The notes below the pieces were generated by a model. It did no database searches and was not told the origin of the DNA. It saw nothing but the letters and a program-made list of their open reading frames with translations. A stretch of 64,000 nucleotides of DNA, from the NCBI GenBank assembly GCA_964456445.1, contig CAYWBI010000001.1, positions 49,593 to 113,592 of the forward strand, in the 5' to 3' direction. This document shows positions 27,930 to 64,000 of this stretch, piece by piece. Made by a program: the position numbers and the translations under genes. Each line of letters opens with the position of its first letter. Position 1 is the stretch's first letter. Source of the DNA: an uncultured Calditrichaceae bacterium (GTDB lineage Bacteria > Calditrichota > Calditrichia > Calditrichales > J004).

Positions 27930-30115
27930 ATGTCCCCTAAGAATTATCAGGATCCGCGCTTTCGCCCAACAACGCTTGTAGAACTTTTAAGATGGCGTGC
28001 TGAAACACGCCCAAATACCCGTGCCTTTACTTTTTTAGTCGATGGCAGAAAAAAAGAAGTTCAGCTTACTTACGCTGAATTAGATAAAAAAGTACGTGCT
28101 TTCGCGACCCTCTTACAAAAAAAGGGTCTTAAAGGTGAACGTGCCTTACTGCTTTTTCCACCGGGAATCGACTATATTATCGCTTTTTTTGGCTGTTTGT
28201 ACGCCGGTGTAATTGCTGTGCCCGCCTACCCACCGGACCCGAACCGGCTCAACAGGACGTTGCCCCGTTTGCAGGCCATTGTACATGACGCCCAGGCATC
28301 CATGGCCCTGACCAATGATTCCATCATGTACATGATTAAAATCCTGCGTCTTGGGAATAAATTTACCGATACAATGGAGCGGATGCCCCTGCTGCGAAAA
28401 TTCCGGACTACCATGAACTATTTTACGGCTCAAAAAACCGGTCTTGCCAATGCGCGTGAGCTTGGCGAACTGCAGTGGATTTCTTCTGACGATGTGCTGG
28501 ATAGTCTGGCCGATTCATGGCATGAGCCTGATATTAATGAAAGTACAATAGCCTTTCTTCAATATACATCCGGTTCAACCGGTACGCCAAAAGGCGTTAT
28601 GCTGACGCATGGCAATCTTCTGGCAAATTCCGCGGATATTTATACTGCTTTTGGATATCGGGAAGGTACAGAAGGTGTAATCTGGTTACCCATATATCAC
28701 GACATGGGCCTTATTGGCGGCGTGATGCAACCCATTTATGGCGGAATGTCCACAACCTTGCTTTCGCCGATCCACTTTTTACAAAAACCCATGCGCTGGC
28801 TGGAAACGATAAGCAGGATCAAAAGCGTAAATGTGGTCAGCGGCGGACCGAACTTTGCTTATGACCTCTGTGTAAAAAAAGTTACTCAAAAACATCTTGA
28901 AACACTTGATCTTAGCAATTGGTCCGTTGCCTTTAGCGGAGCCGAACCCGTGCGCTACGAGACGGTTGAACGGTTTTATAATACTTTTAAAGATAATGGG
29001 TTTAAAAAAGAGGCATTTTTATCCTGTTATGGTTTGGCGGAAGCATCGCTCTATGTGACCGGCGTTGACTATAAAGAAATCCCACCCTCCATGCACTTTG
29101 ATAAACTGGAACTTGGAAAATCAAAACTTATTTCTGTCTCGGGTAGCCATCCCAATGCACAGCACATGATTAGTTGCGGTCATCCTCCTTTGGATCAACG
29201 GGTTGAGATTGTAAACCCTCAAACATTTAAAATCGCAGAGCCGGATGAGACGGGTGAGATTTGGGTCCAGGGGCCGAATATTTCCCAGGGCTACTGGAAT
29301 CGAAAACAAGCTACGGAAGAAACCTTTGGTGCACGTATAAGCGGCAGCAATGACGGCCCTTTTTTGCGGACCGGCGATTTGGGCGCCATGGTTGACGGTG
29401 AATTATATATTACCGGACGCGTTAAAGACCTTATCATTATCAGGGGCCGGAACTATTATCCCCAGGACCTGGAATTTGTAGTGGAAAATGTTCACCAGGC
29501 CATTCGTCCGGGATGTAGCGCCGCATTTTCAATCGAAGAAGATGAACAGGAAAAATTGGTCATAGTTGCCGAAGTGCGCCAGCAAAAGAACTTACCTTTA
29601 GAAGAAATCACTGCGATGATCCGGGCTGCCGTGTCCGAAACAAACGATATCCGTGTACAAACCATTGTTTTAATAAAGGCACGTACCATTTCAAAAACAT
29701 CCAGCGGAAAAATACAGCGTCATGCGGTTAAAAATGAGTTTTTTGAAGATAAGTTAAAAATTATCCATCGCTGGGATGGGAGCAAATCAATTTCCGAAGC
29801 GGCCATCATCGATGAAATGGATGCGCGGCAACAACCTATGGAAGAGAAGGCATCGCCTTCCACAGAAATCAGCCCGGTTACCAAAAAGGGGGATTTAACC
29901 CTTGAAATCGAAGCATGGCTTGTAATGCATCTTGCCGAAACCCTCGAAGTTGACAGCGATGAAATTGACGTTAACAAACAATTTGTAACTTACGGAATGG
30001 ATTCTGCACAAGCCATTGGGCTTGTAGGCGATCTTGAAGATTATGTTCAACGGCCGCTTTCCCCAACCATAATATGGGATTATCCCAACATAAGCGCCCT
30101 GGCCGAGTATATCGG
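27930..30115 (+). other. Loading module: fatty acyl-AMP ligase (FAAL) + ACP
   Basis: See the motifs listed for the parent CDS. Borders are approximate. Confidence 0.85.
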
Positions 30116-44498: not shown

Positions 44499-44501
44499 TA
44501 C

Positions 44502-44543
44502 TAATTAACAATTAACAATTAATAATTAACAATTAATAATTAA
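44502..44543. repeat. Left arm: six tandem heptamers YAATTAA (TAATTAA CAATTAA CAATTAA TAATTAA CAATTAA TAATTAA)
   Basis: Read directly. It begins 4 nt after the PKS stop (44496-44498). Positions 44502-44527 are the perfect reverse complement of 44916-44941. Confidence 0.9.
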
Positions 44544-44564
44544 AAAAATCGGTGTATAGGAACC

Positions 44565-44924: not shown

Positions 44925-44948
44925 TTGTTAATTGTTAATTATTAATTT
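44916..44948. repeat. Right arm: inverted copy of the heptamer array (TTAATTR units)
   Basis: AATTATTAATTGTTAATTGTTAATTATTAATTT. It contains the stop codon of the four-helix-bundle gene and ends 16 nt before the next NRPS start codon. Confidence 0.9.
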
Positions 44949-47900: not shown

Positions 47901-48321
47901 GTTAGAGACAGTGCCAATGTTGCCGGGCGGAAAAGTAAACCGTCGTGCCCTGCCCGTTCCCGAGGATTTGCGCGGACAACTAAGCGCCGAATATGTGGCG
48001 CCACGTACGGAAACTGAAGAAAAGCTTGCCGCCATTGTGGCCCAGGTATTGCGTATCGAAAAGGTGGGCGTGTTTGATAATTTTTTTGAACTGGGCGGTC
48101 ACTCCATGCTTGGCACCCAGGTCATGAGTATGATCCGGGAACAATTTGGGGTGGAAGTACCTTTACGTGCTCTTTTTGAAAGTCCCACAGTTGATGGGAT
48201 TGCAGCCAGTCTTATGGAAGAATTGACCGGGGCCATTGACGAAAAAGAACTATCCAACTTACTCGATGATATGGATGATCTTTCCGGGGATGAATTGGAT
48301 GCCCTGCTTAACGATGATTAG
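44965..48321 (+). CDS. NRPS: C(LCL-like)-A-PCP with acidic C-terminal docking tail
   Basis: 1118 aa. C: FPLSFAQQRMWFLDQLEPGN and HHIVSDNWS. A: AYLIYTSGSSGKPKGV, NAYGPTE, GELCIAG and YRTGD. PCP: FFELGGHSMLG. Tail: DDMDDLSGDELDALLNDD. The A code read by eye is DAENIGAITK (unassigned). Confidence 0.95.
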   Translation: MSSVYQQIASLPPDKRAVLELMLKKQGVDLTQMPILPEAGPRDSFPLSFAQQRMWFLDQLEPGNPLYNICSPVHIRGKLNEDAFRRTFELIVEKHETLRTTFFKEGAEARQKIHPHTELDFETIELDSETDLQQKIVSEANISFNLQKRLPMRIRLFKLGAEEHVAVLTLHHIVSDNWSTGVLIREFMNFYPVLAQGGEVTIQPLRVQYADFAAWQRKWLSGKTLEKQLLYWEEKLSGLPAALDLPTDFPRPAYQTHNGDFLTFELGMTLSNSLKKLAAQYDVTLFMALMAAFQILMLHYSRQEDFAVGTPIANRNRAEIEPLIGFFINTLVIRSDTIDNPTVSTLLKKIKETMIGAYAHQDLPFEMLVEKLDPERDMSQSPLFQTMLVFNNAPVDKLELPNAQLELIGFENKTSKFDLIFNFMESESGLEGKVEFNTDLFKPGTVRAMIRHFTRVVEAMSSGPDKAIGDIALLNTDEKEHILKTLRAQFREVKASKLLLPLILEQCRSGADKIALSNTDGDMTYADLKSHISVVQKVLQDKKIQPGEVVAVVARRTPAAVAILLGVMAHGAVYLPIDPAYPGERLEFMLKDSGARCVLMEAGWKPSAAEFLVSSRLPVYAVDGAPDRLQNMEVYQNEDAPAYLIYTSGSSGKPKGVLVSHRAIADHTVDMCAYFGLTENDRSLQFAAMNFDAALEQILSPLCAGATIVLRDEDIWPVEKFADKINDMGLTVVNPTTAYWNQWCAHLAENGSTNCPTLRLVISGGDAMTPTALKHWRQSALKGVRLINAYGPTETVITSTCFDVPDESLVLEHNRSLPIGLPNANRTAYVLDERQRLLPFGLPGELCIAGKNLASGYHNRPQEEALAFVDDPFTPGQKMYRTGDKVRLHENGIIEFLGRIDAQVKIRGFRIEPGEVENILSQHPDLETALIAIKTDVMGEKQVVAYFRPKAGAVVSIPALRTFMKNQLPPYMLPAAFIQLETVPMLPGGKVNRRALPVPEDLRGQLSAEYVAPRTETEEKLAAIVAQVLRIEKVGVFDNFFELGGHSMLGTQVMSMIREQFGVEVPLRALFESPTVDGIAASLMEELTGAIDEKELSNLLDDMDDLSGDELDALLNDD

Positions 48322-54300: not shown

Positions 54301-57239
54301 ACCCCGGTCATCCTGTGGACCGTACAACCTTTATGCTTCAGGATTCCGGTGCGCGGACAGTGATAACCACCACCAATCTTGCAGATAAATTTGAAAACCA
54401 GGAGATAAGAATCATTTTCATGGATAGCGCAGATGTTGATAAACAACCATCCAGCGACCCGACGATTGACTTTGACCTTGATCAACTGGCCTATATGATC
54501 TACACCTCCGGTTCTACCGGCAAGCCCAAAGGGACCCTGCTTACACACCGCGGTTTCTTAAATCGCCTGCAATGGATGCAACAGGCCTACCCTCTGGGGC
54601 CGGGCGAAACGGTCCTGCAGAAAACACCTTTTAGTTTTGATGTTTCTGTTTGGGAATTCTTTTGGCCTTTTATGTTTGGGGCACGTTTGGTGGTTGCCCG
54701 CGACGGCGGACACAAGGATACAGCCTATCTCACGGACTTGATCCGACGGGAAAATGTTACGACCATGCATTTTGTACCGCCCATGTTAAAGGTTTTTCTG
54801 GAAGAGCGTAATGCCGGGGCATGTACAAGCCTGAAAAATGTGGTCTGTTCCGGTGAAGCCCTTCCCTATGCCCTGAGCCGGGAATTTTATAAAACCCTGC
54901 CCACCGCCCGTTTGCATAACCTTTACGGCCCTACGGAAGCTTCTGTTGATGTGAGTCATTATACCTGTCCTGTTGAACGGGAAGACGGTAAATTACCCAT
55001 TGGACGGCCAATTGCCAATACTCTGTTGTATGTTTTGAATCCTGCTTTAAAACCGGTGCCTGTTGGTGTAAGGGGGGAATTGCATATTGGAGGCGTGCAA
55101 CTGGCGCGCGGCTATGCCAACCGCCCGGATCTTACCGCGGAAAAATTTATTCCCGATCCCTTTGGGAAGGTACCCGGCGCCCGGTTATATAAAACCGGCG
55201 ATGTGTGCCGCTTTCTTCCAACTGGTGAAATCGAGTATATAGGACGTATGGACCATCAGGTGAAAGTGCGTGGCTTCCGCATTGAATTGGGTGAAATTGA
55301 ATCCGCTCTGCGTAAAGGTCCAGGCGTAGAAGATTGTACCGTACAGGTTCGTCCTTTCGGAAGTCAAGAAAAGGCATTGGTTGCATATGTCGTAAGCAAG
55401 GAACAGCAGCCATCCCAGGCAACCCTAAAAGATGCGTTAAAGAAAAACCTCCCGGATTATATGGTACCTTCTGCCTGGCTTTTTATAGATAAAATTCCAC
55501 TCACGGCAAATGGAAAAATTGATCGGGAATCCTTGCCAAATCCTGCCGACCTTGGACGGAACCAATTGGAAAATGCCTATCTTGCACCCCGCAATGATCG
55601 GGAAAAGCAGCTGTCCGATTTGTGGATGAAAGTGTTGAAGCTGGATAAAGTGGGCGTTAGGGACAACTTTTTTGAATTGGGTGGTGATTCCATTGTGGGG
55701 ATTCAACTTATTTCCGCCTCGGCCAGGGATGGACTCACTTTTACACCCCGGGAACTATTTGAGAATCCGACCATCGAAGGGCTGGCGACTATTGCCCGTG
55801 AAGGGGTGGCGATCCATGCCGAGCAGCAACCAATCACAGGGGAAGTAGAATTAACCCCGATTCTGCTCTGGTTTAAACAACTCGATCTGCCGCAACGCGC
55901 ACACTGGAACCAATCCATAATGCTTAAAAGCCAAGCCGCCCTCAAGCCGGATATTCTCCAAGGAGTGGCCAACACGTTATATGCCCATCACGATATGCTG
56001 CGCTTATATTGGGATGATGGAAGCCCCATGATAGCAACACAGACGACGGAGGCACCCCTTTTTGAATATCAGGATTTGCGCCGCTTAAACCTGGATGAGC
56101 AGAAATCCAGCATGAAAAAAATTGTTGAAAAAACCCAAAGCGGACATGATCTGCAAAGGGGGCCCTTGTTTAAAATCCTTTATTTCTCCCTGGACAGTGC
56201 TATTGGTGACCGTTTATTTATTAGCATCCATCATACCGTTATTGATGCGGTTTCGTGGCGGGTGCTGCTGGAGGATTTGCAACTGGCTTATGCACGGTTT
56301 AGCGAAGAAAAACCGCTAACTTTACCGGCCAAGACCACTTCCTTTGCTTACTATGCGAAACGTTTAAAGGAATATGCCCGCACCACGGATTGGGGAAAGG
56401 AAATGAAATTTTGGCAAAATTTTATCGGGCAAGAGGCAGCTTCGTTAAAGATGTTGAAAACGGGTAAAAATTTGCAAAAAGACCGCATACATATTGACAT
56501 TAAATTGAATATAGAACAAACAGCCAACCTACAACGCGTGGTACCGGAAACCTATAATACCAGAGTTGTCGAAAATTTATTGACAGCGTTATTCATCGCC
56601 TGGAAAAACCTTAAGGGCACAAACAGCTTACTGATCGATATGGAAGGGCATGGACGCGAAGCTTTATTTGAAGAAGTTGACCTGGCCCGCACCGTGGGAT
56701 GGTTTACATCGCTTTTTCCCGTACATTTGCATACATCAGAGTCGGACTTGGGTGAAGTGATCAAGTCCCTTAAAGAAGAAATACGTGCTATTCCTGAGAA
56801 TGGGATCAATTATGGATTGTTGAGGTTTTTGGCGCCAGAGACCGTCCGTAAGGAGATAGAAAAATTGCCCAGCGCCGGGATATTGTTTAATTACCTGGGA
56901 CAGTTTGAACAAGATGAAGCCATGAAAAGCCGCTTTGAAATGAAACCGGGGGAAACCGGCGCCGACATTGGTGCTGAAAACAGAAACAGCCATCTGCTTG
57001 AAATTACATCCAGTATTGTTAATGGTGTTTTTAACATAACCTTTAATTTTTGTCCCGATAGCGTGAGTGAAAGTTTTATTGTTCAATTTGCCGATAAAAC
57101 CGTCCAGGCTTTAGATCAAATAATCGAGCACAGCTTAAGCGGCGAAAGCGGAGGATATACACCTTCTGACTTTTCAGCGATGGAGGTTGACCAGGAAGAG
57201 TTAGATGATATTTTATCCGAATTGGATGATTTGGAATGA
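48345..57239 (+). CDS. NRPS: C-A(Ser)-PCP-ST-C-A(Ser)-PCP-E
   Basis: 2964 aa. C1 HHIVADGWS. A1 AYMIYTSGSTGKPKGT, code DVWHVSLVDK. PCP1 FFDIGGNSL (Ser codon 51465-51467). Sulfotransferase region (see separate feature). C2 HHIITDGWS (53085). A2 code DVWHVSLVDK. PCP2 FFELGGDSIVG (the GGDSI form typical before E domains). E domain HHTVIDAVSWRVL (56229). Confidence 0.95.
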   Translation: MSDISAKLKNLSPEQRELLLKKLQARKKTAGDGQDTIAPRPDPDRFPVSYAQERLWFFDQLAPGSSLYNISAAVKFKGPLETDLLEQSINAVVQRHEILQVYFETEKGAPLQKKAGQASIGLSVEDIGDLPLGELAAIEAQTPFDLSRAPLLRARLIKVDEQAHALLLTIHHIVADGWSMGVFINETARYYRALQGDGQKPAPLKIQYFDYAWWQKNKSDKAKMARQLDFWADELKGMPTLLELPFDRSREGVQSFRGRHHIFQISPKTTAALRALSRKSGVTTFITLLAAFQTLLYRYSNQNDFGLGIPIANRNKKELEALIGFFVNTLVIRAEIDGSLSFSDFLKQVKTRAFKAYDNQDVPFEQVVEKVQPQRNNQIAPLFQVMFELQGDALSGLNFGDLELKTIDFETGTAKFDLLLIMEEGRETLKGVLEYNADLFTAETVERMMRHFAYLLDQIAQAPDTHLDKIGLLPPEEEQNILLRWNQTAADYPKSPFIHQYTAQFALSNPDHPALLSAQGTFTYRQFEERGNQLAHYLVSHGIGRDDRVGVCMDRSAEMVIALHGILKAGAAYVPFDPRHPAERRRFMLDDSGARLILTQAHLLDLFKGSSIHAVVLDASFALIESLPVTPPVVDIDGDQLAYMIYTSGSTGKPKGTFLAHKSILNRLIWMQESYGLTMKDVVLQKTPFSFDVSVWEFFWPFMQGATLAIAREEGHKDSAYLTETVRQYGVTTLHFVPPMLKVFLEDRDSKKCISLKRVVCSGEALPYALSEQFYKTLPNAVLYNLYGPTEAAVDVTAYTCPRDRDDKKLPIGSPIANTQIYILDPALNPVPVGVGGELYIAGVQLARGYANRPGLTAEKFIADPYAKSPGSRMYKTGDLCRYLPGGEIEYLGRIDHQVKLRGFRIELGEIEAVLRGHPAIKDCIVLVRGTDMEKAIIAWYIPEEGQSPVPEDLRQYIIRHMPEYMAPNFFIPLDAFPLTSNGKLDRRGLPDVNLKKDRPKTRFVSPRNRLEAHLAELWREILGVKTLSMYDNFFDIGGNSLKAAVLINRLQEEVDKKLHVGMVFQAPRIAEFAMFAQEYFTEEVLKNFGDSAVGAVDDSFKVMAISAESKIKNADIQAFRQIVFPLQKRKKEPTHLTKNKPAIFILSPPRSGSTLLRIMLAGNPVLFSPPELDLLSFNTIGERRRFFEEQGLPLWLEATTHAIKEIQHTSLAEAERIMRDIEDKDITVKDFYHLLQNGLKQKILVDKTPSYAIDPAALQRAEEDFEQPLYVHLARHPYAMIYSFIEAKLDKNFFKFPHKFTRQQLAELIWLNSHQNILDFLKDIPDERHVFLRFEDLLFKPEAEIRRLTEFLGVPFTADMLKPYQGRKMTEGLKQGSQMVGDFKFYLHQNINNKVAGKWRGFHKHDFLCEQSEILAGNFGYETHTRSKAIAENTDIQKIEQAPRQTYMPLSFAQQRLWFIDQLEPGSTQYNVPGAIYINGNVDARLLEKSIALLVERHEILRTTFHTIEGKGMQKIHAEYQPVLIQHDLRTLPTEQKDVAAQGLIDTLSKTVFKLNELPILKIMLVRLKENEYIFALVAHHIITDGWSNGIIIREASHYYDLLIEEKSVVTPALALQYVDIAVWQREWINGNQAGQQLNFWKKELKGAPPLLDIPTDFPRKANNAPVGKRLYFELGEAISQKVRTCCNRQGTTSFVVLMAAFQTLMHHYAAQQEVLIGTPVAGRTQQAMEGLIGFFVNTIVQRTQFKPGATFRDILDQVRDKAARILNHQDYPFEKLLEALNVQRSLEHAPLFQVMFSMQEDDICAFSKNFATRPYRTDSGTAKFDLLLELFDSNSIRGAFEYNTSLFRAETIKRLKDHFERLLIILTTQMDIPIAEINFIGPHEEELLTHKWNDTALDFPNGQTVPQQIMEQARKRPGAPALTFEGHTFLYAEFNQKVNQWAHLLVENGVQREQRVAVCLERSDNMVLALNAVMRCGGVYVPLDPGHPVDRTTFMLQDSGARTVITTTNLADKFENQEIRIIFMDSADVDKQPSSDPTIDFDLDQLAYMIYTSGSTGKPKGTLLTHRGFLNRLQWMQQAYPLGPGETVLQKTPFSFDVSVWEFFWPFMFGARLVVARDGGHKDTAYLTDLIRRENVTTMHFVPPMLKVFLEERNAGACTSLKNVVCSGEALPYALSREFYKTLPTARLHNLYGPTEASVDVSHYTCPVEREDGKLPIGRPIANTLLYVLNPALKPVPVGVRGELHIGGVQLARGYANRPDLTAEKFIPDPFGKVPGARLYKTGDVCRFLPTGEIEYIGRMDHQVKVRGFRIELGEIESALRKGPGVEDCTVQVRPFGSQEKALVAYVVSKEQQPSQATLKDALKKNLPDYMVPSAWLFIDKIPLTANGKIDRESLPNPADLGRNQLENAYLAPRNDREKQLSDLWMKVLKLDKVGVRDNFFELGGDSIVGIQLISASARDGLTFTPRELFENPTIEGLATIAREGVAIHAEQQPITGEVELTPILLWFKQLDLPQRAHWNQSIMLKSQAALKPDILQGVANTLYAHHDMLRLYWDDGSPMIATQTTEAPLFEYQDLRRLNLDEQKSSMKKIVEKTQSGHDLQRGPLFKILYFSLDSAIGDRLFISIHHTVIDAVSWRVLLEDLQLAYARFSEEKPLTLPAKTTSFAYYAKRLKEYARTTDWGKEMKFWQNFIGQEAASLKMLKTGKNLQKDRIHIDIKLNIEQTANLQRVVPETYNTRVVENLLTALFIAWKNLKGTNSLLIDMEGHGREALFEEVDLARTVGWFTSLFPVHLHTSESDLGEVIKSLKEEIRAIPENGINYGLLRFLAPETVRKEIEKLPSAGILFNYLGQFEQDEAMKSRFEMKPGETGADIGAENRNSHLLEITSSIVNGVFNITFNFCPDSVSESFIVQFADKTVQALDQIIEHSLSGESGGYTPSDFSAMEVDQEELDDILSELDDLE
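51740..52620 (+). other. Embedded sulfotransferase domain (CurM/Ols 'activating ST'-like) between PCP1 and C2
   Basis: KPAIFILSPPRSGSTLLRIMLAGNPVLFSPPELDLLSFNT (PAPS 5'-phosphosulfate-binding loop PRSGST at 51789-51809), LVDKTPSYA, YVHLARHPYAMIYSF and GDFKFYLHQNINNKVAGKWR. These four blocks parallel the CurM ST domain blocks as I remember them. Borders are approximate. Confidence 0.8.
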
Positions 57240-58186
57240 AAACAGGAAAAAATATGGCAAGACCGGTTTTAATTTCAGGATTGCAACGCTCAGGTACAAC
57301 CTGGACGGCCCGCATGTTAACCCTTTCGGATGAGATGTTCTATGTTTTGGAACCTTTTAATATCCTGCGTGACCCCATTCATCTGATTGGAGCGGGCACC
57401 AACTTCCCCTATTTCCAGGAGGTTGATTCGGAACGATATGTCAAAATAAGAAGCGGACTCGGCTTGAGTTTCACAAAGGATGAATTAAGGGTTTTTATGA
57501 AACAATCCCCTTCTCCCAAGTACCATCTGTACCATATAGTACGCTACCTTAGCTTAAACAGGCGTTTGAATAAAGGGATGAAACCGGTGATACAGGACCC
57601 TTTCGCTGTTTTTATGGCACCCTGGCTCAGTCATAATTTGGGAATTTTACCCCTGTTTCTGTTCCGCCACCCCGCTGCCTATATCAACAGCATGAAACGT
57701 ATGAAGTGGGGTTTTAATTTTGCCTGGCTTGCCGATCAGGAAGAATTGATGGATGAATACTTATCTGATTTTAGCGATGATATACGTAAATGGGCCGGGG
57801 AAGAATTCATTCCTTTTTCTATTGAAACACAATGTCTGGTCTGGAATATATTTACCAGCGTTATTTTACGTTACTCCAAGGAACACAGCAACTGGCTTTT
57901 TTATCGACATGAAGATTTATCGATGAATCCCATGACGTTGTTTTATAAAATATATGCAGAAATTGGAATTGACATGAATCAAACAATTATGCGGAAAATT
58001 GAAAAATTTACTGGCAGCGGCAATCCTGCCACGGCACGCGATGGTAAAATGCACAGTTTAAAACGCAATAGCAGGGAAAATATAAAAAATTGGCAAAAGC
58101 AATTAAGCGTTGATGAAATCAATCAAATACATCATTTAACCGCAGCTTTTTCCAATCCACTTTACTCCGAGGACGAGTGGCATTAA
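57236..58186 (+). CDS. Stand-alone sulfotransferase
   Basis: 316 aa with PSB-loop-like ISGLQRSGTTWTARML, a mid-protein FRHPAAYINS block and a C-terminal KRNSRENIKNWQKQLS block (cf. RKG..GDWK..F of PAPS-dependent STs). The ATG overlaps the upstream TGA (ATGA, 57236-57239). Confidence 0.75.
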   Translation: MKTGKNMARPVLISGLQRSGTTWTARMLTLSDEMFYVLEPFNILRDPIHLIGAGTNFPYFQEVDSERYVKIRSGLGLSFTKDELRVFMKQSPSPKYHLYHIVRYLSLNRRLNKGMKPVIQDPFAVFMAPWLSHNLGILPLFLFRHPAAYINSMKRMKWGFNFAWLADQEELMDEYLSDFSDDIRKWAGEEFIPFSIETQCLVWNIFTSVILRYSKEHSNWLFYRHEDLSMNPMTLFYKIYAEIGIDMNQTIMRKIEKFTGSGNPATARDGKMHSLKRNSRENIKNWQKQLSVDEINQIHHLTAAFSNPLYSEDEWH

Positions 58187-58238
58187 ATATTTAGGATAAG
58201 CGCCGTAAAATTAAAGGAAAATTTGCAAAATTTAAATT

Positions 58239-61200
58239 ATGAGTAAAAAACCAACGCAACATAAAAACATTGAAGACATATATCCCTTATCACCTATGCA
58301 ACAGGGGATGTTATTTCATAAGCTGCTGGAACCGGAAAGCCCGACCTATAACGAGCTCATGTACTTTAAGCTGCGAGGGCCTATTGAACCGCAGGTTTTT
58401 AGAAACGCCCTGCGCGCGCTCGTACGGCGCCATTCGGTTCTGCGGACCGCTTTTATTTATAAAAAAAGTGAAAAGCTCTTACAGGTCGTCCACAAAGAAG
58501 TGGAGTTGCCAGTGCTCATGGATGATTGGCGCGATAAAACATCAGAAGAACAATCCATTGGCTTTAAAATACTGTTGGATAAAGATCGAAAAAAAGGTTT
58601 TAATTTATCCAAAGCGCCCTTATTGCGCCTGCATCTTCTTAGATTAGAAGATGATTTATGGCAGGTGCTTTGGAGTAATCATCATCTGATCCTTGACGGT
58701 TGGTCGAATCCCATTCTGCTAAAAGAATTGTTCATCTTATATGAAACCGGGCTAAAAGGGCTGGAAGCACCCTTACCGCCCGCCCGTCCCTTCAAGGAAT
58801 ATATTTTATGGTTACAAAAGCAGGATAAAGAAAAGGCCAATGTTTTTTGGAAAGATTTTTTGCAAGAGTTTTCCGTTCCAACTCCTTTTAATGTGGATAA
58901 ACTGCCAAATCAGCGAAAATCAATGGATCGTTATGGAAAACAGCAGTTCCGTTTAAATCGTACTGAAACGGCACGTATAAAAGCCACAGCAAGGAAAGAG
59001 AACCTAACCGTCAACAGCATGGTGCAGGGTGCCTGGGCCCTTTTGCTGCATCATTACAGTCGCGAAAATCAAATCGTTTTTGGCGCAACGGTTTCTGGAA
59101 GACCCGCTGAAATAACCGATATTCAAAATATGGTTGGGTTATTTATAAACACCTTGCCGCTTTGTGTAAATATTGATCCACAAAAATCGACAAACACCTG
59201 GTTAAAAGAAGTGCAGCGGATGGCCGTGCTGTTACGGGATTTTGAATACAGCGCGCTGGCCGATGTGCAAAAACAAAGCGCAATTGATTCCGGCCCCCTG
59301 TTTGAAAGCATTCTGGTATTTGAAAATTATCCGGTTGAAGAAGAAATGGGCCGTCAAAAAACAAGTCTTACCCTTTCGGATTTTGGCGTTTATGAACAAA
59401 CCAATTTTCCGCTTACACTTCTTGTTGCCGCCGATGAGGAAATCATTATCGATGCCTCCTATCAGCCGACCCGTTTTACAGAACCGGTTATTACCGATAT
59501 GTTGGGACATCTGCGCAATCTTCTTTTGTCCATGGCCCGCAACCCCGATCTTCCTTTAGGGCAACATAAAATTTTAAATCAGGAACAGGAAGAGTCCCTG
59601 CTAAAAATCAGTAAAGGCCCCCAACAGAATTATGATTCCACGGCTTTTATCCCTATTCAGTTTGAGCGCCAGGTGCGGGCGACACCTACACAAACAGTGC
59701 TGATTTTTGATGACCGGAAATGGAGCTATGACGCCCTGAACCGGGCGGTCAACCGGCTTGCCCGGGAGTTGATTCATGCTGGGATTAAAGCAGACCGGCG
59801 CGTGGCAGTCTATATGGAACGCTCGGCGGAAATGGTGCTTGCCCTTTATGCCATCATTAAAGCAGGCGCGGCATATGTGCCCATCGACCCTACCAATCCA
59901 ACGGACCGCATCCGCTTTATGTTGGAAGACAGCAAACCGGCATTGATCTTAACCCAGAAAAAATTTATCCAGGATATCAGGCAATCGGGGCACAAACATT
60001 TAATTGTCGATGTGGACAACCTGCCGGAACGCAGCGAAGATAACCCCAAACTGGATATTGCGCCCGATCAGGCGGCCTATATGATCTACACATCCGGTTC
60101 CACCGGTCGGCCCAAGGGCGCCATCTTGCCCCATAAGGCCATCCGCAACCGGCTGCAATGGATGCAGAATACCTACAAACTGGATGCAACAGATCGAATC
60201 CTGCAAAAAACGCCCTACACTTTTGATGTCTCGCTATGGGAATTCTTTTGGCCTCTGATGTACGGCGCCACCCTGGTGATGGCCCGCCCGGAGGGTCATA
60301 AGGATACCGCATATCTCGTGCAAACCATTCACGATCAGAAAATCACCACTTTGCATTTTGTACCACCCATGCTTCAGGTTTTTCTGGAAGCGCCGGGCGT
60401 TGGGACATGTGATTCCCTTAAACGGGTTATATGCAGCGGCGAGGCCCTGCCCGTTGATCTAAAGGAACGCTTTTATAAAAAACTGCACGCGGACTTCCAC
60501 AATTTATATGGCCCCACCGAGGCAGCGGTGGATGTTACAGCCTATGCCTGCACGCAAACGTTACAGAATAAGTTGTTGCCTATAGGAAAACCGATCGCCA
60601 ATACAAATATTTATGTCTTGGATGAACAGCTCCGCCCTGTGCCTGTAGGTGTGCCGGGAGAATTGTTTATTGGCGGAATTCAATTGGCGCGCGGCTATCA
60701 TTTGCGACCGGATCTGACCGCCGAAAAATTTATCCCCGATCCCTTTTCAAAAATACCCGGCGCGCGTATGTACCGCAGCGGCGACCTTGTAAGGCGGCTG
60801 CCCGGCGGCGACATCGATTATCTTTCACGTCTGGATTTTCAACTAAAAATCCGCGGTTTCCGCATCGAACTCGGTGAGATAGAGGCGAACCTTACAGCCC
60901 TTTCGGAAATACGCGAAGCGCTGGTCACCGTGTACGAACCGCAACCGGGCAACAAGCAATTGACGGCATATATAACCCCTGCAAACAGCGGGACGGTAAT
61001 TGATGCAGATAATATCCGCGCCGCCCTTTCCGCCAGTCTGCCGGATTATATGATCCCGGTGCATTTTATTACGCTGGAAAGCTTCCCGCTTACGCCCAAT
61101 GGGAAAATAGACCGCAAGGCGCTGCCCGCCCCCGAAGGCCCGGCGCCGGACACAGAAAGCTATGTGGCCCCCGGCACGGCCCTGGAAAAAGAAATACAAA

Positions 61201-64000
61201 CCATTTGGCAGGACATCCTCGCCGTGGAACCCATCGGCATACACCGTAATTTTTTTCAATTAGGCGGCCACTCGATTCTTGCCACACGCCTGGTTACACG
61301 CTTCCGTCAGGCTTTTAAAGTGGAAATCCCATTAAGCGCCGTTTTTGATTCGCCCACCATCGCCCGCCAGGCTTTGTTGGTTGAAATGGAACAGGCCAGC
61401 GGTCAACGTCCGGATCTGCCCGAATTGGTCCCCGTGGCCCGTTCCGGGCTACTGCCCGTTTCACTGCCCCAACAACGTTTGTGGTTCATCGATCAGTTTA
61501 ACCCGGGCACCACCGCCTACAACATCAACCTGGCCCTGATGATAAACGGAAAACTGGATATTGAGTTATTGGAAAAAAGTATCCGGGCGGTAATCGACCG
61601 GCACGAAATTCTAAGGACCAGTTTTGTCAACAAAGACGGAGCGCCCTATTTGCATATTCATTCCGATTTTGACTTCCATTTGGAATATGCCGAAAACAAA
61701 GATGGAATACCGGAAGAAGAAACGGTCCGCAGCGAGTCCGCCGCCATGGCCGCAACCGTTTTTAACCTGGAAGAACTACCGCTATTGCGTATGAGGGTAG
61801 TCGGTTTTAATGATACCCGCTTTTTGTTGACGGGCGTCATCCATCATATTATCAGCGACGGGCAGTCGATGCAGGTTTTTATCAATGAGGTATTGGCCTT
61901 TTACCGCGCCCTTAGCACAAAGAACGAAGTAGATATGGCCCCCCTTCCCTTCCAGTACGCCGATTATGCCTCTTGGCAGCGTCAATGGTTAAGCGGTGAT
62001 ATCCTGGAAAAACATATCCGGTACTGGAAGGAAAAAATCGGTCCACAACCCGACGTTTTGGAACTGCCCACGGATTTTCCACGTCCGGCGGTACAATCCT
62101 TTAACGGACGGCAAATCGATTTTGAACTGGAAGAAAGCCAAACGGCCCGTTTAAAAATTTTTACGCAACAAAACGGCGTCACCCTGTTTATGGCCCTGAT
62201 GACCGCTTACCAAATCCTGTTGCACCGCTATAGCCGTCAAACGAATATTTTGATCGGTTCACCGGTTACCGGGCGGCTGTTGGAAGAATCCAATAATCTG
62301 ATTGGTTTTTTTGTAAACACCCTGGTATTAAAAGGCTCGTTTGAGGCAAGCACCACCGTTGCACAGACCTTACAAAATATCCGGCAGAATGTCCTCGAAG
62401 CCCATGCCCATCAATCCCTGCCCTTCGAGCAACTGGTGGAACTGCTTCAGCCGGAACGTGACCTGGCCCATCCTCCGCTTTTTCAGGCGGCGTTTATTTT
62501 ACAGAATGCACAAAGCCTGGCTATGGATACGGCCGGTCTGCAATTTGAAGAAGTCGTTCCGGAATCCGTTGTGGCCAAGGTAGATTTAAGTCTTTATGCA
62601 ATCGAAAACGCAGATAACATCAGTTTGAGATTGGAATATAACAGTGACCTGTTCCGCGCGGAAACCATCGAACGCATGGGGCGTCATTTGATGCGGGTTT
62701 TAACCGGGATGCTGGAAAATCCGGCGCGGAAAATTGCACAGATCCCGCTGATGGGACGCAGGGAACAAGATCAACTTCTTCAACAACTGTCCGCCCGTGC
62801 CGCGGATAAATTAAAAATGAATAATGTCGTGGCGGCCTTTCGTGCCCGGGTTGTTGAAAACCATTCGCAGACCGCCCTGTCCACAAACGGAAGTGAAATA
62901 TCGTATGCCGAGCTGGACAGGCTTTCGGATAAGGCAGCAGGCCGTCTGTTGGAGACCGGGATTAAAACAGAAGATATCCTGGGTATTTGCATGGACCGCG
63001 GCCCATTGACGGTAATTGCCATGCTGGCCATTCTAAAGGCCGGAGCGGCATATCTGCCGCTTGATCCAGCCTATCCAGGGGAACGGTTGCGCTATATGGC
63101 GCAGGATGCGGGCGCCTCCTTCATTTTAACAAACGATAGTACATTGGAACATGCCCAGTCTGTTTTTCCGCCGGATATCCAACTAATAACCATGGAATCC
63201 CTGTTGCAGGAAGGCAAAACTGACAACACGCTAACCCTGCCGGAAATCGGTCCGCTTCAACTGGCCTATGTGATTTACACCTCCGGCTCTACGGGAAAGC
63301 CCAAGGGAACGTTGTTGGCGCACCGGGGATTGGTGAACCTTGCCCATGAACAGCGCAAGGCTTTTAAAATAGATTCCACCAGCCGGATTTTACAGTTTGC
63401 CTCGCTGAGTTTTGACGCGGCTACCTGGGAAATATTTATGGCCCTGTTGAACGGTGCGGCACTGCACCTGATCGAAACAGAAACCCAGGCCGATATCGGC
63501 CTGTTACAGGAGCGGATGGTAGCGGAAAAAATCAGCACAATTACCTTGCCGCCTTCTGTGCTGGCCTTGTTTGACACTCGGCCCATGCCCGATTTAAAAA
63601 CAATCATCACGGCGGGTGAAAAGTGTCCGCAACCACTGGTAAAACGTTTCCAGCCCGGTCGTCAGATGGTGAACGCCTATGGTCCCACGGAAACCACCGT
63701 GTGCGCCTGTTATTATGAAACCAATGCAAGTGAAACCCTAAATCCGCCCATTGGTTTTCCACTTGGCGGCTTTGACCTGCATGTTCTGGATTCAAACCTG
63801 CAATTGTTACCGGTGGGCGTACCCGGCGAATTGTGTATCGGTGGCATAGGGTTGGCGCGCGGCTACCTCAACCGGCCGGACCTGACCAATGAAAAATTTA
63901 TTGCGCATCCTTATGGCCCGCCGGGCGCGCGTTTGTACCGTAGCGGTGACCTGGTTAAACGCCGTGACGACGGTGCCATGGAATTTTTGGGCCGCATCGA
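58239..64000 (+). CDS. NRPS (3' partial, runs off window): C(DCL-like)-A(Ser)-PCP-C(LCL-like)-A(Phe)...
   Basis: Hand translation from ATG 58239: MSKKPTQHKNIEDIYPLSPMQQGMLFH... I saw no stop codon in the stretches I translated by hand (58239 to about 60560 and 63351-63720), and checkpoints at the PCP, C2 and A2 motifs stay in this frame (codon starts divisible by 3) to near 64000. It is not in the ORF track, presumably because it is open-ended. C1 HHLILDGWS (58680). A1 AYMIYTSGSTGRPKGA, code DVWHISLVDK. PCP FFQLGGHSIL (Ser codon 61272-61274). C2 HHIISDGQS (61842). A2 AYVIYTSGSTGKPKGT (63264), code DAWTIAAVCK. Confidence 0.9.
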   Translation, partial: MSKKPTQHKNIEDIYPLSPMQQGMLFHKLLEPESPTYNELMYFKLRGPIEPQVFRNALRALVRRHSVLRTAFIYKKSEKLLQVVHKEVELPVLMDDWRDKTSEEQSIGFKILLDKDRKKGFNLSKAPLLRLHLLRLEDDLWQVLWSNHHLILDGWSNPILLKELFILYETGLKGLEAPLPPARPFKEYILWLQKQDKEKANVFWKDFLQEFSVPTPFNVDKLPNQRKSMDRYGKQQFRLNRTETARIKATARKENLTVNSMVQGAWALLLHHYSRENQIVFGATVSGRPAEITDIQNMVGLFINTLPLCVNIDPQKSTNTWLKEVQRMAVLLRDFEYSALADVQKQSAIDSGPLFESILVFENYPVEEEMGRQKTSLTLSDFGVYEQTNFPLTLLVAADEEIIIDASYQPTRFTEPVITDMLGHLRNLLLSMARNPDLPLGQHKILNQEQEESLLKISKGPQQNYDSTAFIPIQFERQVRATPTQTVLIFDDRKWSYDALNRAVNRLARELIHAGIKADRRVAVYMERSAEMVLALYAIIKAGAAYVPIDPTNPTDRIRFMLEDSKPALILTQKKFIQDIRQSGHKHLIVDVDNLPERSEDNPKLDIAPDQAAYMIYTSGSTGRPKGAILPHKAIRNRLQWMQNTYKLDATDRILQKTPYTFDVSLWEFFWPLMYGATLVMARPEGHKDTAYLVQTIHDQKITTLHFVPPMLQVFLEAPGVGTCDSLKRVICSGEALPVDLKERFYKKLHADFHNLYGPTEAAVDVTAYACTQTLQNKLLPIGKPIANTNIYVLDEQLRPVPVGVPGELFIGGIQLARGYHLRPDLTAEKFIPDPFSKIPGARMYRSGDLVRRLPGGDIDYLSRLDFQLKIRGFRIELGEIEANLTALSEIREALVTVYEPQPGNKQLTAYITPANSGTVIDADNIRAALSASLPDYMIPVHFITLESFPLTPNGKIDRKALPAPEGPAPDTESYVAPGTALEKEIQTIWQDILAVEPIGIHRNFFQLGGHSILATRLVTRFRQAFKVEIPLSAVFDSPTIARQALLVEMEQASGQRPDLPELVPVARSGLLPVSLPQQRLWFIDQFNPGTTAYNINLALMINGKLDIELLEKSIRAVIDRHEILRTSFVNKDGAPYLHIHSDFDFHLEYAENKDGIPEEETVRSESAAMAATVFNLEELPLLRMRVVGFNDTRFLLTGVIHHIISDGQSMQVFINEVLAFYRALSTKNEVDMAPLPFQYADYASWQRQWLSGDILEKHIRYWKEKIGPQPDVLELPTDFPRPAVQSFNGRQIDFELEESQTARLKIFTQQNGVTLFMALMTAYQILLHRYSRQTNILIGSPVTGRLLEESNNLIGFFVNTLVLKGSFEASTTVAQTLQNIRQNVLEAHAHQSLPFEQLVELLQPERDLAHPPLFQAAFILQNAQSLAMDTAGLQFEEVVPESVVAKVDLSLYAIENADNISLRLEYNSDLFRAETIERMGRHLMRVLTGMLENPARKIAQIPLMGRREQDQLLQQLSARAADKLKMNNVVAAFRARVVENHSQTALSTNGSEISYAELDRLSDKAAGRLLETGIKTEDILGICMDRGPLTVIAMLAILKAGAAYLPLDPAYPGERLRYMAQDAGASFILTNDSTLEHAQSVFPPDIQLITMESLLQEGKTDNTLTLPEIGPLQLAYVIYTSGSTGKPKGTLLAHRGLVNLAHEQRKAFKIDSTSRILQFASLSFDAATWEIFMALLNGAALHLIETETQADIGLLQERMVAEKISTITLPPSVLALFDTRPMPDLKTIITAGEKCPQPLVKRFQPGRQMVNAYGPTETTVCACYYETNASETLNPPIGFPLGGFDLHVLDSNLQLLPVGVPGELCIGGIGLARGYLNRPDLTNEKFIAHPYGPPGARLYRSGDLVKRRDDGAMEFLGRI

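What the first reader, a model, noticed from the sequence alone, without database searches (positions are those of the whole stretch)
27930..64000. Large FAAL-primed hybrid PKS/NRPS lipopeptide cluster, incomplete in the window
Six co-directional ORFs with 23-162 nt gaps or a 4-nt overlap encode a loading module plus 8 extension modules in at least 36 kb. No TE/R release domain, PPTase, MbtH-like gene or transporter has appeared by position 64000, so the cluster continues to the right. The combination is not one I can match to a known compound family. It includes FAAL-ACP loading, one fully reducing PKS module, an aromatic amino acid, a KS-AT-KR module, then a Ser-rich peptide (Ser, D-Ser, Ser) and Phe, together with two sulfotransferases. 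Predicted chain so far: (Cn+2 acyl)-Tyr-like -> C2-extended beta-hydroxy unit -> X -> Ser(sulfo or Dha?) -> D-Ser -> Ser -> Phe...
Basis: partly seen in the sequence, partly recalled or inferred. Interest (0 to 1): 0.7.

Follow-up and report, generated by a model that had tools for sequence, protein, structure and literature searches.

The report
Lipopeptide assembly line with built-in sulfotransferase
This is the first 36 kb of a real, previously undescribed fatty-acid-primed PKS/NRPS lipopeptide gene cluster from an uncultured Calditrichota bacterium; its unusual feature is a CurM-type sulfotransferase domain wedged between a serine-carrying carrier domain and the next condensation domain, a layout that recurs in many uncultured bacteria and for which I found no biochemical study.

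Summary
Window 27930-64000 holds six co-directional intact ORFs:
- P1: FAAL-ACP-KS-AT-DH-ER-KR-ACP-C-A(Tyr)-T
- P2: KS-AT-KR-ACP
- P3: C-A(cationic-type?)-T
- P4: C-A(Ser)-T-ST-C-A(Ser)-T-E
- P5: free-standing sulfotransferase
- P6: C(DCL)-A(Ser)-T-C-A(Phe), open at the window end

All catalytic motifs are intact. The P2-P3 gap is 466 nt, not 23-162 nt, and holds a small inverted-repeat-flanked cassette.

The host is a Calditrichota bacterium. An independent assembly (92% nt identity) confirms the left junction. A Calditrichales MAG (67% aa identity) keeps the P4-P5-P6 order and continues with at least three more NRPS modules. No genome from a cultured organism exceeds about 40% identity, so this is not a known cluster.

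The embedded ST is a CurM/OLS homologue (E 2.5e-62) but sits T-ST-C, not ACP-ST-TE. Among 102 ST-bearing NRPS modules from a 1.84-billion-protein library, residues with a side-chain nucleophile (Ser, Thr, Tyr, Dap, basic) are strongly enriched (odds ratio 6.9, p 4e-13). This points to on-line side-chain sulfonation, here of Ser5. The window's closest ST relatives often sit in Val/Ile modules, so the acceptor, and whether sulfate is kept or eliminated to Dha, remains open.

Verdict: new variant of a known kind; interest about 0.55.

The parts
27084..27845 (+). AraC-type HTH regulator (253 aa), probable cluster regulator and left edge of the cluster
   Evidence: PF12833 HTH_18. It is kept next to the P1 homologue in three independent contigs, L080, L081 and L082. 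Everything upstream is housekeeping on the minus strand.
27930..39836 (+). P1, 3968 aa: FAAL-ACP loading, fully reducing PKS module 1 (KS-AT-DH-ER-KR-ACP), NRPS module 2 (C-A(Tyr)-T)
   Evidence: Pfam and domain map. FAAL NCBIfam families rank first. Motifs are intact: KS DTACSS/HGTGT/NIGH, AT GHSVG/YAFH, DH HPLL+HVVQDSVVFP+YGP+LLDAALQ, ER HAGAGGVG, KR S/Y/N. A-domain code DASTIAAICK.
27930..29789 (+). FAAL domain (P1 residues 1-620)
   Evidence: PF00501 plus PF23024 DIP2-like C-terminal domain. The best NCBIfam hits are fatty-acid--AMP ligase families, below their equivalog cut-offs.
39999..44498 (+). P2, 1499 aa: PKS module 3, KS-AT-KR-ACP; extends the Tyr carboxyl by C2 and reduces it to a beta-hydroxyl (statine-type unit)
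   Evidence: Pfam. KS TACSTS/HGTGT/NIGH; AT GHSIG/HAFH (malonyl type); KR with NADPH site and S/Y/N, no LDD motif; ACP GGNSL.
44965..48321 (+). P3, 1118 aa: NRPS module 4, C-A-T; A-domain code DAENIGAITK, unassigned (acidic residue at position 239 suggests a cationic amino acid)
   Evidence: Acidic C-terminal docking tail.
48345..57239 (+). P4, 2964 aa: module 5 C-A(Ser)-T-ST and module 6 C-A(Ser)-T-E
51357..51581 (+). T5 carrier domain (P4 residues 1005-1079, GGNSL) that precedes the ST
51768..52469 (+). In-line sulfotransferase domain (P4 residues 1142-1375), CurM/OLS family
   Evidence: PF13469. Matches PDB 4gbm CurM ST at E 2.5e-62 and 4gox OLS ST at E 3.5e-57. PRSGST, PPE, DKTP and RHP..S motifs are conserved.
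52683..54017 (+). C domain directly downstream of the ST (P4 residues 1447-1891), HHIITDGWS
   Evidence: Forms a small group of its own with the L001 orthologue in C-domain clustering.
55851..57236 (+). E domain (P4 residues 2503-2964)
   Evidence: HHTVIDAVSW, EGHGRE, FNYLGQ.
57236..58186 (+). P5, 316 aa: free-standing PAPS-type sulfotransferase; 4-nt overlap with P4
   Evidence: PF00685 at 30.2 bits against a cut-off of 22. Motifs QRSGTTW and RHPAAYINS. 68% identical orthologue at the same position in L001.
58239..64000 (+). P6 (partial, 1920 aa in the window): module 7 DCL-C-A(Ser)-T and module 8 C-A(Phe)...; runs off the window
   Evidence: The L001 orthologue is 2154 aa, C-A-T-C-A-T.

Best explanation
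The region is the upstream ~36 kb of a colinear, FAAL-primed hybrid PKS/NRPS assembly line in a Calditrichota bacterium. It builds a long lipopeptide.

Shown from sequence:
- FAAL activates a fatty acid and loads it on an ACP.
- Module 1 adds one fully reduced C2 unit.
- Module 2 N-acylates Tyr.
- Module 3 (KS-AT-KR-ACP) extends the Tyr carboxyl by malonate and reduces it to a gamma-amino-beta-hydroxy (statine-type) unit.
- Modules 4-8 add X (probably cationic), Ser, D-Ser, Ser and Phe.
- The line continues beyond the window. In the 67%-identical relative the next residues are Ser, D-Gln and more.

Inferred: the CurM-family ST domain fused after T5 uses PAPS to sulfonate the intermediate while it hangs on that carrier domain. 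The most likely acceptor is the side-chain hydroxyl of Ser5, which lies beta to the thioester just as in the CurM substrate, and the sulfate ester is most likely kept in the product. The free-standing ST P5 adds a second sulfate to an unidentified hydroxyl (Tyr phenol, statine OH or another Ser). The product would then be an anionic, sulfated lipopeptide.

I hold the architecture part at about 0.95. The stated confidence of 0.45 refers to the specific ST reading (Ser5 O-sulfonation, sulfate retained).
For: - Domain content and order. Intact catalytic motifs. Stachelhaus codes Tyr / ? / Ser / Ser / Ser / Phe.
- P6 C1 clusters with post-E (DCL) C domains. Docking tails support the order P3->P4->P6.
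- The ST is homologous to CurM/OLS ST (E 2.5e-62), with the PRSGST loop, the RHP..S motif and the PPE glutamate (which I take from memory to be the PAPS-binding motifs and catalytic base of CurM ST) all conserved.
- Family survey: 111 of the 150 best representative proteins carry the ST inside NRPSs. Of 102 A-T-ST modules, 26 are Ser, 20 Thr, 14 Tyr-like, 6 Dap/Dab and 10 basic. That is 76/102, against 53/179 for the other modules of the same proteins (Fisher odds ratio 6.9, p 4e-13; Ser alone odds ratio 5.2, p 1e-5).
- The next module shows no such enrichment: Ser+Thr 15/77.
- Tyr-, Dap- and Lys-type ST modules cannot lose sulfate by beta-elimination, so the domain family includes decorating members.
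- Retained sulfate from in-line ST domains is documented for OciA and DysB (PMC2533009, PMC6520454).
- Orthologous P4-P5-P6 with Ser-ST in L001.
Against: - The window ST's nearest relatives are mostly in modules with hydrophobic codes: P0429 Val at 67% identity, P0436 Ile-like at 61%, then P0478, P0410, P0441, P0431. Their ST motifs are fully conserved. In this subclade the acceptor therefore cannot generally be the module's own unmodified side chain.
The fragment's numbering was self-consistent, but it was not checked against a database.
- The representatives are related proteins, not independent samples.
- No PAPS-synthesis genes lie in the window.
- No chemistry is available.
Confidence: 0.45

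Rival explanations
1. Activation-elimination. The ST sulfonates a carrier-bound Ser hydroxyl only to make a leaving group. Loss of sulfate is either spontaneous at the thioester stage or triggered by alpha-deprotonation, for example by the E domain of module 6 if the acceptor is Ser6. The result is dehydroalanine. ST plus E/C would then be an NRPS dehydratase equivalent, and the product would carry Dha instead of sulfo-Ser.
For: The only biochemically studied homologues, CurM and OLS ST, are 'activating' STs whose sulfate is eliminated (PMC3903477). The Ser hydroxyl is beta to the thioester, as in their substrate. Ser and Thr together make up 46/102 ST modules. In the five closest ST relatives the module after the ST is always Ser/Thr with an E domain. 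The post-ST C domains of the window and L001 form a separate small group.
Against: Tyr-like (14), Dap/Dab (6) and basic (10) ST modules cannot use this chemistry. The NRPS STs form a clade apart from CurM/OLS at about 39% identity, and they replace the His of PPELH by Asp/Glu/Gln. In CurM the beta-sulfated thioester does not eliminate until TE hydrolysis (established knowledge). Across the family the n+1 module shows no Ser/Thr enrichment. The literature searches I ran found no report of such a mechanism.
Confidence: 0.2
2. Different acceptor. The in-line ST sulfonates a hydroxyl elsewhere on the tethered chain rather than Ser5. Candidates are the statine-type beta-OH made by module 3, the Tyr phenol, or Ser6. 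Its position after T5 would only set the timing.
For: In the window's own ST subclade the ST-bearing module often activates Val or Ile, with intact ST motifs. That implies either an acceptor outside the module's own side chain or prior hydroxylation in trans. The chain on T5 already carries a KR-made beta-hydroxyl and a phenol.
Against: There is strong family-wide enrichment of nucleophile-bearing residues in the ST-bearing module itself and none in the next module. CurM-type STs act on the hydroxyl beta to the thioester of the adjacent carrier domain (established knowledge). The free-standing P5 is available for remote hydroxyls.
Confidence: 0.25
3. The ST domain is a catalytically dead structural relic, and only P5 sulfates the product.
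For: The His of the CurM/OLS PPELH motif is Asp in the window.
Against: The same substitution (Asp/Glu/Gln) is the rule in all NRPS-embedded STs. The PRSGST, PPE, DKTP and RHP..S motifs are invariant or nearly so across more than 100 representatives at <=50% identity, which indicates purifying selection.
Confidence: 0.04
4. The locus is a chimeric assembly, or a close copy of an already characterised cluster.
For: The P2-P3 junction with its low-GC cassette is not covered by any independent assembly I could retrieve.
Against: L082 matches window 13898-36574 at 91.8% nt identity. L080 and L081 keep the housekeeping-AraC-P1 order. L001 keeps P4-P5-P6. All ORFs are intact and carry matched docking tails. 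The best cultured-organism hits to P6 are 35-40% identical.
Confidence: 0.03

Closest known systems
CurM (curacin A) and OLS olefin-synthase 'activating' sulfotransferase domains (PDB 4gbm, 4gox)
   Same: Clear sequence homologues of the embedded ST (E 2.5e-62 and 3.5e-57; about 39% identity). Same PF13469 family. The PRSGST loop, the PPE glutamate and the RHP..S motif are shared. The domain is fused directly after a carrier domain and faces a hydroxyl beta to the thioester.
   Different: CurM/OLS sit as ACP-ST-TE at the end of a PKS, after a KR-containing module, and the sulfate is eliminated during decarboxylative release. Here the ST follows an NRPS Ser module and is followed by a C domain in mid-line. 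The His of PPELH is Asp. NRPS STs cluster apart from CurM/OLS.
In-line ST domains of glyceric-acid starter modules: OciA (cyanopeptolin/oscillapeptin, Planktothrix) and DysB (dysinosins)
   Same: A sulfotransferase domain built into an NRPS protein that sulfates a carrier-bound unit. The sulfate is retained in the product (PMC2533009, PMC6520454).
   Different: Those domains sit in the loading region together with an FkbH/glyceric-acid loading domain. Here the ST is in an elongation module (C-A(Ser)-T-ST-C), and no FkbH domain was reported. I could not test sequence relatedness to the window ST because I had no Oci/Dys sequences.
SulN in sulfazecin biosynthesis
   Same: PAPS-dependent sulfonation of a peptide while it is bound to an NRPS carrier domain (PMC11298585).
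   Different: SulN is free-standing. It N-sulfonates Dap (A-domain code DVWEMNADDK) and primes beta-lactam formation by a special TE. The window module is Ser-specific, and the ST is fused in cis.
NRPS-to-PKS statine-type units (gamma-amino-beta-hydroxy acids, as in didemnin, spiruchostatin/FK228-type and Ahppa-containing cyanobacterial peptides; from memory)
   Same: An A-T module followed by KS-AT-KR-ACP predicts a Tyr-derived 4-amino-3-hydroxy-5-arylpentanoate unit.
   Different: None of those clusters combines this unit with FAAL priming, a Ser-rich peptide and two sulfotransferases. No sequence-level match was found.
Uncharacterised orthologous cluster in the Calditrichales MAG S144_8_esom (WGCN01000029.1; locus L001)
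   Same: P4-like C-A(Ser)-T-ST-C-A(Ser)-T-E, a P5-like ST (68% identity) and a P6-like C-A(Ser)-T-C-A(Phe)-T (67% identity), in the same order.
   Different: It comes from a different, more GC-rich organism. Only the P4-onward part is visible. It shows the continuation that the window lacks: C-A(Ser)-T-C-A(Gln)-T-E, then C-A...

Membership tests
FAAL-primed modular hybrid type I PKS/NRPS lipopeptide assembly line | Fatty acyl-AMP ligase fused to or followed by an ACP as the loading module | tested here: met
   PF00501 plus PF23024. FAAL NCBIfam families rank above acyl-CoA ligase families, though below their equivalog cut-offs. ACP with GMDS.
FAAL-primed modular hybrid type I PKS/NRPS lipopeptide assembly line | KS-AT-(reductive loop)-ACP modules with catalytic residues | tested here: met
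   Both KS domains have the Cys-His-His residues. Both AT domains have GHSxG. DH, ER and KR motifs are present.
FAAL-primed modular hybrid type I PKS/NRPS lipopeptide assembly line | C-A-T modules, colinear and co-directional | tested here: met
   Six C domains with HHxxxD, six A domains, five T domains with the phosphopantetheine-attachment serine (GG[HDN]S motif); the sixth NRPS module is cut off by the window end.
FAAL-primed modular hybrid type I PKS/NRPS lipopeptide assembly line | Chain-release domain (TE, R or terminal C) | not testable with these tools
   None lies within the window. The line runs off at 64000. The relative L001 still has no release domain 10 kb further on. Attempts to extend failed.
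CurM/OLS activating sulfotransferase (ACP-ST-TE off-loading) | ST domain homologous to CurM ST with PAPS-binding motifs | tested here: met
   4gbm E 2.5e-62; PRSGST, PPE, RHP..S.
CurM/OLS activating sulfotransferase (ACP-ST-TE off-loading) | Preceded by a KR-containing PKS module that makes a beta-hydroxyacyl-ACP | tested here: not met
   It is preceded by C-A(Ser)-T.
CurM/OLS activating sulfotransferase (ACP-ST-TE off-loading) | Followed by a TE that hydrolyses, decarboxylates and eliminates sulfate | tested here: not met
   It is followed by a C domain and a further module.
CurM/OLS activating sulfotransferase (ACP-ST-TE off-loading) | PPELH active-site segment (His next to the Glu) | tested here: not met
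   The window has PPELD. NRPS-embedded STs have D/E/Q/A at this position.
FkbH/glyceric-acid starter module with in-line ST (OciA, DysB) | FkbH-like glyceryl-loading domain adjacent to the ST, at the start of the line | tested here: not met
   No FkbH family is among the Pfam hits. The ST is in elongation module 5.
Sulfazecin-type monobactam NRPS | Dap-specific terminal A domain (DVWEMNADDK-like) plus sulfonation of the carrier-bound Dap | tested here: not met
   The ST module code is DVWHVSLVDK (Ser), against the published Dap codes.
NRPS elongation modules with in-line ST (T-ST-C; uncharacterised family defined here) | A-T-ST(-C) order inside an NRPS protein, with ST motifs conserved | tested here: met
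   Window P4; the loci L001, L002 (twice), L005, L010, L012 and L029; and 111 representative proteins.
NRPS elongation modules with in-line ST (T-ST-C; uncharacterised family defined here) | The ST-bearing module activates a residue with a side-chain nucleophile | tested here: met
   The window module is Ser. Family-wide the figure is 76/102 against 53/179, p 4e-13. The window's nearest ST relatives often do not meet this feature.

The most novel reading that the evidence does not exclude
The T-ST-C-A(Ser)-T-E cassette is a new NRPS dehydration device. The in-line CurM-type ST installs sulfate on a carrier-bound Ser as a leaving group. Alpha-deprotonation, by the thioester's own acidity or by the neighbouring E domain, then expels it to give dehydroalanine. 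In relatives with Val/Ile modules the same would yield dehydro-Val or dehydro-Ile after hydroxylation in trans. This would extend the curacin 'activating sulfation' logic from PKS off-loading to mid-chain peptide editing. It would also make the product a Dha-containing, statine-bearing lipopeptide from a phylum for which I found no characterised natural product.
Probability: 0.18. Interest if true: 0.8.

Novelty: new variant of a known kind. Interest (0 to 1): 0.55.

Why it matters
Calditrichota is a phylum for which I found no characterised natural product. This cluster predicts a large lipopeptide (at least 11 building blocks, judging from the relative) that combines a fatty acyl tail, a Tyr-derived statine-type unit (a classical protease-inhibitor pharmacophore) and one or two sulfate groups.

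More generally, the survey shows that CurM-family ST domains fused between a carrier and a condensation domain are widespread: at least 111 cluster representatives at 50% identity, in Calditrichota, Zhuqueibacterota, Chloroflexota, Acidobacteriota and Melioribacteraceae (Bacteroidota/Ignavibacteria lineage). They are strongly associated with Ser, Thr, Tyr and Dap modules. I found no biochemical study of this domain position. Settling whether it decorates (sulfo-Ser, sulfo-Thr, sulfo-Tyr, sulfamates) or activates (dehydro-amino acids) would add a rule to NRPS structure prediction. The window offers a clean Ser-specific test case.

Tried and rejected
- An exact look-up of P5 in the assembly index found nothing.
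- An exact 60-nt scan of metagenome contigs with the window's right end, and a protein-based metagenome scan with the last 851 aa of P6, both found nothing. The window therefore could not be extended.
- I tried to extend the L001 contig by finding its downstream protein in the 5.8-billion-protein index. The index returned only proteins of about 1150 aa or shorter, with a best identity of 48%.
- The contigs of the 98%- and 89%-PPDK relatives end inside or just after the P1 homologue.
- A single-sequence AlphaFold model of P5 was unusable (pLDDT 34), so I ran no fold search.
- P5 has no significant PDB match alone. A two-sequence profile gave only weak cytosolic SULT hits, E about 0.008.
- The CurM ST structure paper (PMC3528841) is not held. 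The role of the His in PPELH comes from memory only.
- I considered that the ST acts on the next module's residue and rejected it as a family-wide rule: the n+1 Ser/Thr frequency (15/77) equals background.
- I considered that the Lys-like codes in L002 and L012 are really Dap. I rejected this because the published Dap codes differ.
- I considered that the upstream AMP-binding gene (7999-9870) belongs to the cluster. I rejected this because it sits among housekeeping genes 18 kb away.
Full report
**Observation.** The window has 23 minus-strand ORFs up to 26.6 kb. A run of plus-strand ORFs follows:
- 27084-27845 (AraC-type HTH)
- P1 27930-39836 (3968 aa)
- P2 39999-44498 (1499 aa)
- P3 44965-48321 (1118 aa)
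- P4 48345-57239 (2964 aa)
- P5 57236-58186 (316 aa)
- P6 from 58239, still open at 64000

The spacers are 162, 466, 23, -4 and 52 nt. That spacer holds a 119-aa ORF.

The upstream 27 kb encodes housekeeping proteins. They include an Asp/Asn/Lys-type class II tRNA synthetase, FBPase, GpsA, PlsY, Pol I, MutS2, EF-P, a histidine kinase/response regulator pair, asparaginase and PPDK. The cluster's left border is therefore at the AraC gene or at P1.

**Anatomy.** Pfam plus profiles built from the window's own domains give:
- P1 = FAAL(1-620)-ACP-KS-AT-DH-ER-KR-ACP-C-A-T
- P2 = KS-AT-KR-ACP
- P3 = C-A-T
- P4 = C-A-T(1005-1079)-ST(1142-1375)-C(1447-1891)-A-T-E(2503-2964)
- P5 = sulfotransferase
- P6 = C-A-T-C-A(truncated)

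Active-site motifs are intact throughout:
- Both KS domains have Cys/His/His.
- The AT domains have GHSxG with YAFH (AT1) and HAFH (AT2, malonyl type).
- DH has HPLL, HVVQDSVVFP, YGP and LLDAALQ.
- ER has HAGAGGVG.
- Both KR domains have the NADPH loop and S/Y/N.
- All C domains have HHxxxD.
- All carrier domains have the serine.
- The E domain has HHTVIDAVSW, EGHGRE and FNYLGQ.
- P3 and P4 end in acidic helices, and P4 starts with a basic one, which is typical of docking pairs.

The FAAL region hits fatty-acid--AMP ligase NCBIfam models ahead of acyl-CoA ligases.

No TE, R, PPTase, MbtH or transporter family appears among the Pfam families reported for these ORFs.

**Substrates.** The resulting codes are:

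| Module | Code | Assignment |
|---|---|---|
| M2 | DASTIAAICK | Tyr-type |
| M4 | DAENIGAITK | unassigned; Glu239 suggests a cationic substrate |
| M5 | DVWHVSLVDK | Ser |
| M6 | DVWHVSLVDK | Ser |
| M7 | DVWHISLVDK | Ser |
| M8 | DAWTIAAVC- | Phe |

The first C domain of P6 clusters with C domains that follow E domains in six related loci, which supports D-Ser at M6.

The predicted chain is therefore: (Cn+2 acyl)-Tyr, C2-extended to a gamma-amino-beta-hydroxy unit, then X-Ser-D-Ser-Ser-Phe and onward.

**Source and authenticity.** PPDK from the window is 98% and 89% identical to proteins from two ENA metagenome assemblies. It is about 80% identical to Caldithrix and Calditrichota proteins. 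Both of those contigs keep the order housekeeping - AraC - P1 homologue. One of them (L082) is 91.8% identical at nucleotide level to window 13898-36574. Both end inside or just after the P1 homologue, so they say nothing about the right side.

A scan of 185,579 species genomes with P6 gave one good relative: a Calditrichales MAG (L001, 67% aa identity). Everything else was <=45%, and cultured organisms (Myxococcus, Nostoc, Paenibacillus, Pseudomonas and others) were 35-40%. That is generic NRPS similarity, so no characterised cluster matches.

L001 carries the following, in order:
- a P4 orthologue with the same C-A(Ser)-T-ST-C-A(Ser)-T-E layout;
- a P5 orthologue (68% identity);
- a complete P6 orthologue (2154 aa, C-A(Ser)-T-C-A(Phe)-T);
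- then C-A(Ser)-T-C-A(Gln)-T-E;
- then another C-A...

The window's cluster therefore almost certainly continues for at least three more modules.

**The embedded sulfotransferase.** The ST domain matches the crystal-structure sequences of CurM ST (4gbm, E 2.5e-62) and the Synechococcus olefin-synthase ST (4gox, E 3.5e-57) over their full length. It keeps the PRSGST loop, the PPE glutamate, DKTP and RHP..S. The context is different, however: T-ST-C in mid-line instead of ACP-ST-TE at the end.

Protein-database hits to the domain are at most 57% identical. They include ACP-ST didomain proteins, ST-TE proteins and many fragments with A-T-ST or T-ST-C order.

The same [C-A-T-ST-C-A-T-E][C-A-T-C-A(Phe)-T] cassette occurs in MAGs of Calditrichia (twice in one locus), Zhuqueibacterota, Chloroflexia and Melioribacteraceae. 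A T-ST-C module also occurs in Thermoanaerobaculia.

**What does the ST act on?** I built a T-ST-C profile (A1) and searched 1.84 billion representative proteins. Of the best 150, 111 carry the ST inside multimodular NRPS proteins, giving 118 ST domains.

Code classes for 102 A-T-ST modules, compared with the 179 other modules of the same proteins:

| Class | ST-bearing modules | Other modules |
|---|---|---|
| Ser | 26 | 11 |
| Thr | 20 | 19 |
| Tyr-like | 14 | 6 |
| Dap/Dab | 6 | 1 |
| basic | 10 | 16 |
| other | 26 | 126 |

- Residues with a side-chain nucleophile make up 76/102 against 53/179 (odds ratio 6.9, p 4e-13).
- The module after the ST shows no enrichment: Ser+Thr is 15/77.
- This supports a general rule that the in-line ST sulfonates the side chain of the residue on its own carrier domain.
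- Tyr, Dap and Lys cannot undergo beta-elimination, so at least part of the family must leave the sulfate or sulfamate in place.
- That agrees with the two documented in-line NRPS STs, both in glyceric-acid starter modules: OciA and DysB. It also agrees with trans sulfonation of PCP-bound Dap by SulN.
- NRPS STs form a group apart from CurM/OLS at about 39% identity. They replace the His of PPELH by Asp, Glu or Gln.

**Caveat specific to this window.** By identity, the nearest relatives of the window's ST are:

| Relative | ST identity | Own-module residue |
|---|---|---|
| L001 | 79% | Ser |
| P0429 | 67% | Val-coded |
| P0436 | 61% | Ile-like |
| P0444 | 61% | Ser |

Below these come mostly hydrophobic-coded modules. 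Their ST motifs are as well conserved as in Ser modules, so they are not relics. In this subclade either the residues are hydroxylated in trans before sulfonation, or the acceptor lies elsewhere on the chain.

In the five closest members the following module is always Ser or Thr with an E domain. That may be simple inheritance, or it may hint at an ST-plus-E elimination route. I therefore split my belief about the ST's role as follows:
- 0.45: Ser5 O-sulfonation with retained sulfate
- 0.20: sulfonation followed by elimination to Dha
- 0.25: another acceptor
- 0.04: inactive domain

**P5.** The free-standing ST has a 5'-PSB-like QRSGTTW and a 3'-PB-like RHPAAYINS. It passes the PF00685 threshold weakly. 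It has no useful PDB relative and an unusable single-sequence model. Its conservation next to P4 in L001 argues that it belongs to the pathway. Its acceptor is unknown.

**Comparison and novelty.**
- As a whole, this is a new member of a well-known kind: a FAAL-primed hybrid PKS/NRPS lipopeptide cluster with an NRPS-to-PKS statine-type unit.
- The T-ST-C elongation module is a variant for which I found no description in five full-text literature searches. Many subscription-journal papers are not searchable, so this absence is not proof.
- It fails three of the four defining features of the CurM/OLS off-loading system: the upstream KR module, the downstream TE and the PPELH motif. It also lacks the FkbH context of OciA and DysB. 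It works like these systems in principle (carrier-directed PAPS sulfotransfer), but it is not a member of either.

**In passing.** The P2-P3 spacer is a 450-bp low-GC cassette (28-35% GC against about 48% in the flanks). It is bounded by 32-nt AT-rich inverted repeats (94% complementary) that pair in the predicted RNA fold. It encodes a TIGR02436 four-helix-bundle protein (112.6 bits), which from memory is the family first found inside 23S rRNA intervening sequences.

**What failed.** All attempts to extend the window to the right failed, so the release mechanism and the remaining tailoring genes are unknown.

Noticed in passing
window 44499-44947: A low-GC (28-35%) cassette of about 450 bp sits exactly between the P2 stop and the P3 start. 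It carries ORF 44565-44924 (119 aa, TIGR02436 four-helix-bundle protein, 112.6 bits). It is flanked by 32-nt AT-rich inverted repeats made of TTAACAA/TTAATAA heptamers, which pair as a 26-bp stem in the RNA fold. It looks like an IVS-like or mobile mini-insertion inside the PKS/NRPS operon. The stem could be an RNase III site or an attenuator.
   Followed up: partly
L002 881-25357; L005 107-16456; L010 2666-16405; L012 1023-16378: The two-protein cassette [C-A-T-ST-C-A-T-E][C-A-T-C-A(Phe)-T] is conserved across Calditrichia (twice in L002), Zhuqueibacterota, Chloroflexia and Melioribacteraceae. The Phe module is constant, while the residue in the ST module varies. This suggests a widely shared or horizontally spread lipopeptide family in uncultured phyla.
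   Followed up: partly
alignment A1; representative proteins P0361-P0510: NRPS-embedded ST domains have PPEL[D/E/Q/A]LL where CurM and OLS have PPELHLL. Two sub-signatures exist: ELELL/MLGDVKF/GMIRSF, mostly in Ser/Thr/Tyr modules, and ELDLL/MVGDFKF/AMIYSF, mostly in hydrophobic-coded modules. The window ST has the second signature.
   Followed up: partly
P0403, P0445, P0432, P0421, P0435, P0446: Several ST-bearing modules carry Dap-type codes (DIWE[IL]TADDK, like the published sulfazecin-family codes). Two of them have the ST as the last detected domain of the protein. These are candidates for cis-acting N-sulfonation and possibly monobactam-like chemistry.
   Followed up: no
one search hit list (e.g. 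P0034 Anabaena sp. PCC 7108, P0058, P0086 Thiothrix nivea): Free-standing ACP-ST didomain proteins of about 430 aa, 42-47% identical to the window ST, are common in cyanobacteria and some proteobacteria. I do not know their role.
   Followed up: no
window 20766-21764 (-): A 332-aa ORF has no Pfam or NCBIfam match. It is conserved in synteny between the histone-deacetylase-like gene and efp in L080 and L082.
   Followed up: no
window 27084-27845 (+): An AraC-type regulator is kept immediately upstream of the P1 homologue in three independent contigs (L080, L081, L082). It is a likely pathway regulator.
   Followed up: partly
The search for homologous proteins outputs: The 5.8-billion-protein word-indexed collection returned only proteins of about 1150 aa or shorter for NRPS queries. 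The 1.84-billion representative library returned proteins up to 7800 aa. Very long megasynthases seem to be missing from, or not retrievable in, the former.
   Followed up: no
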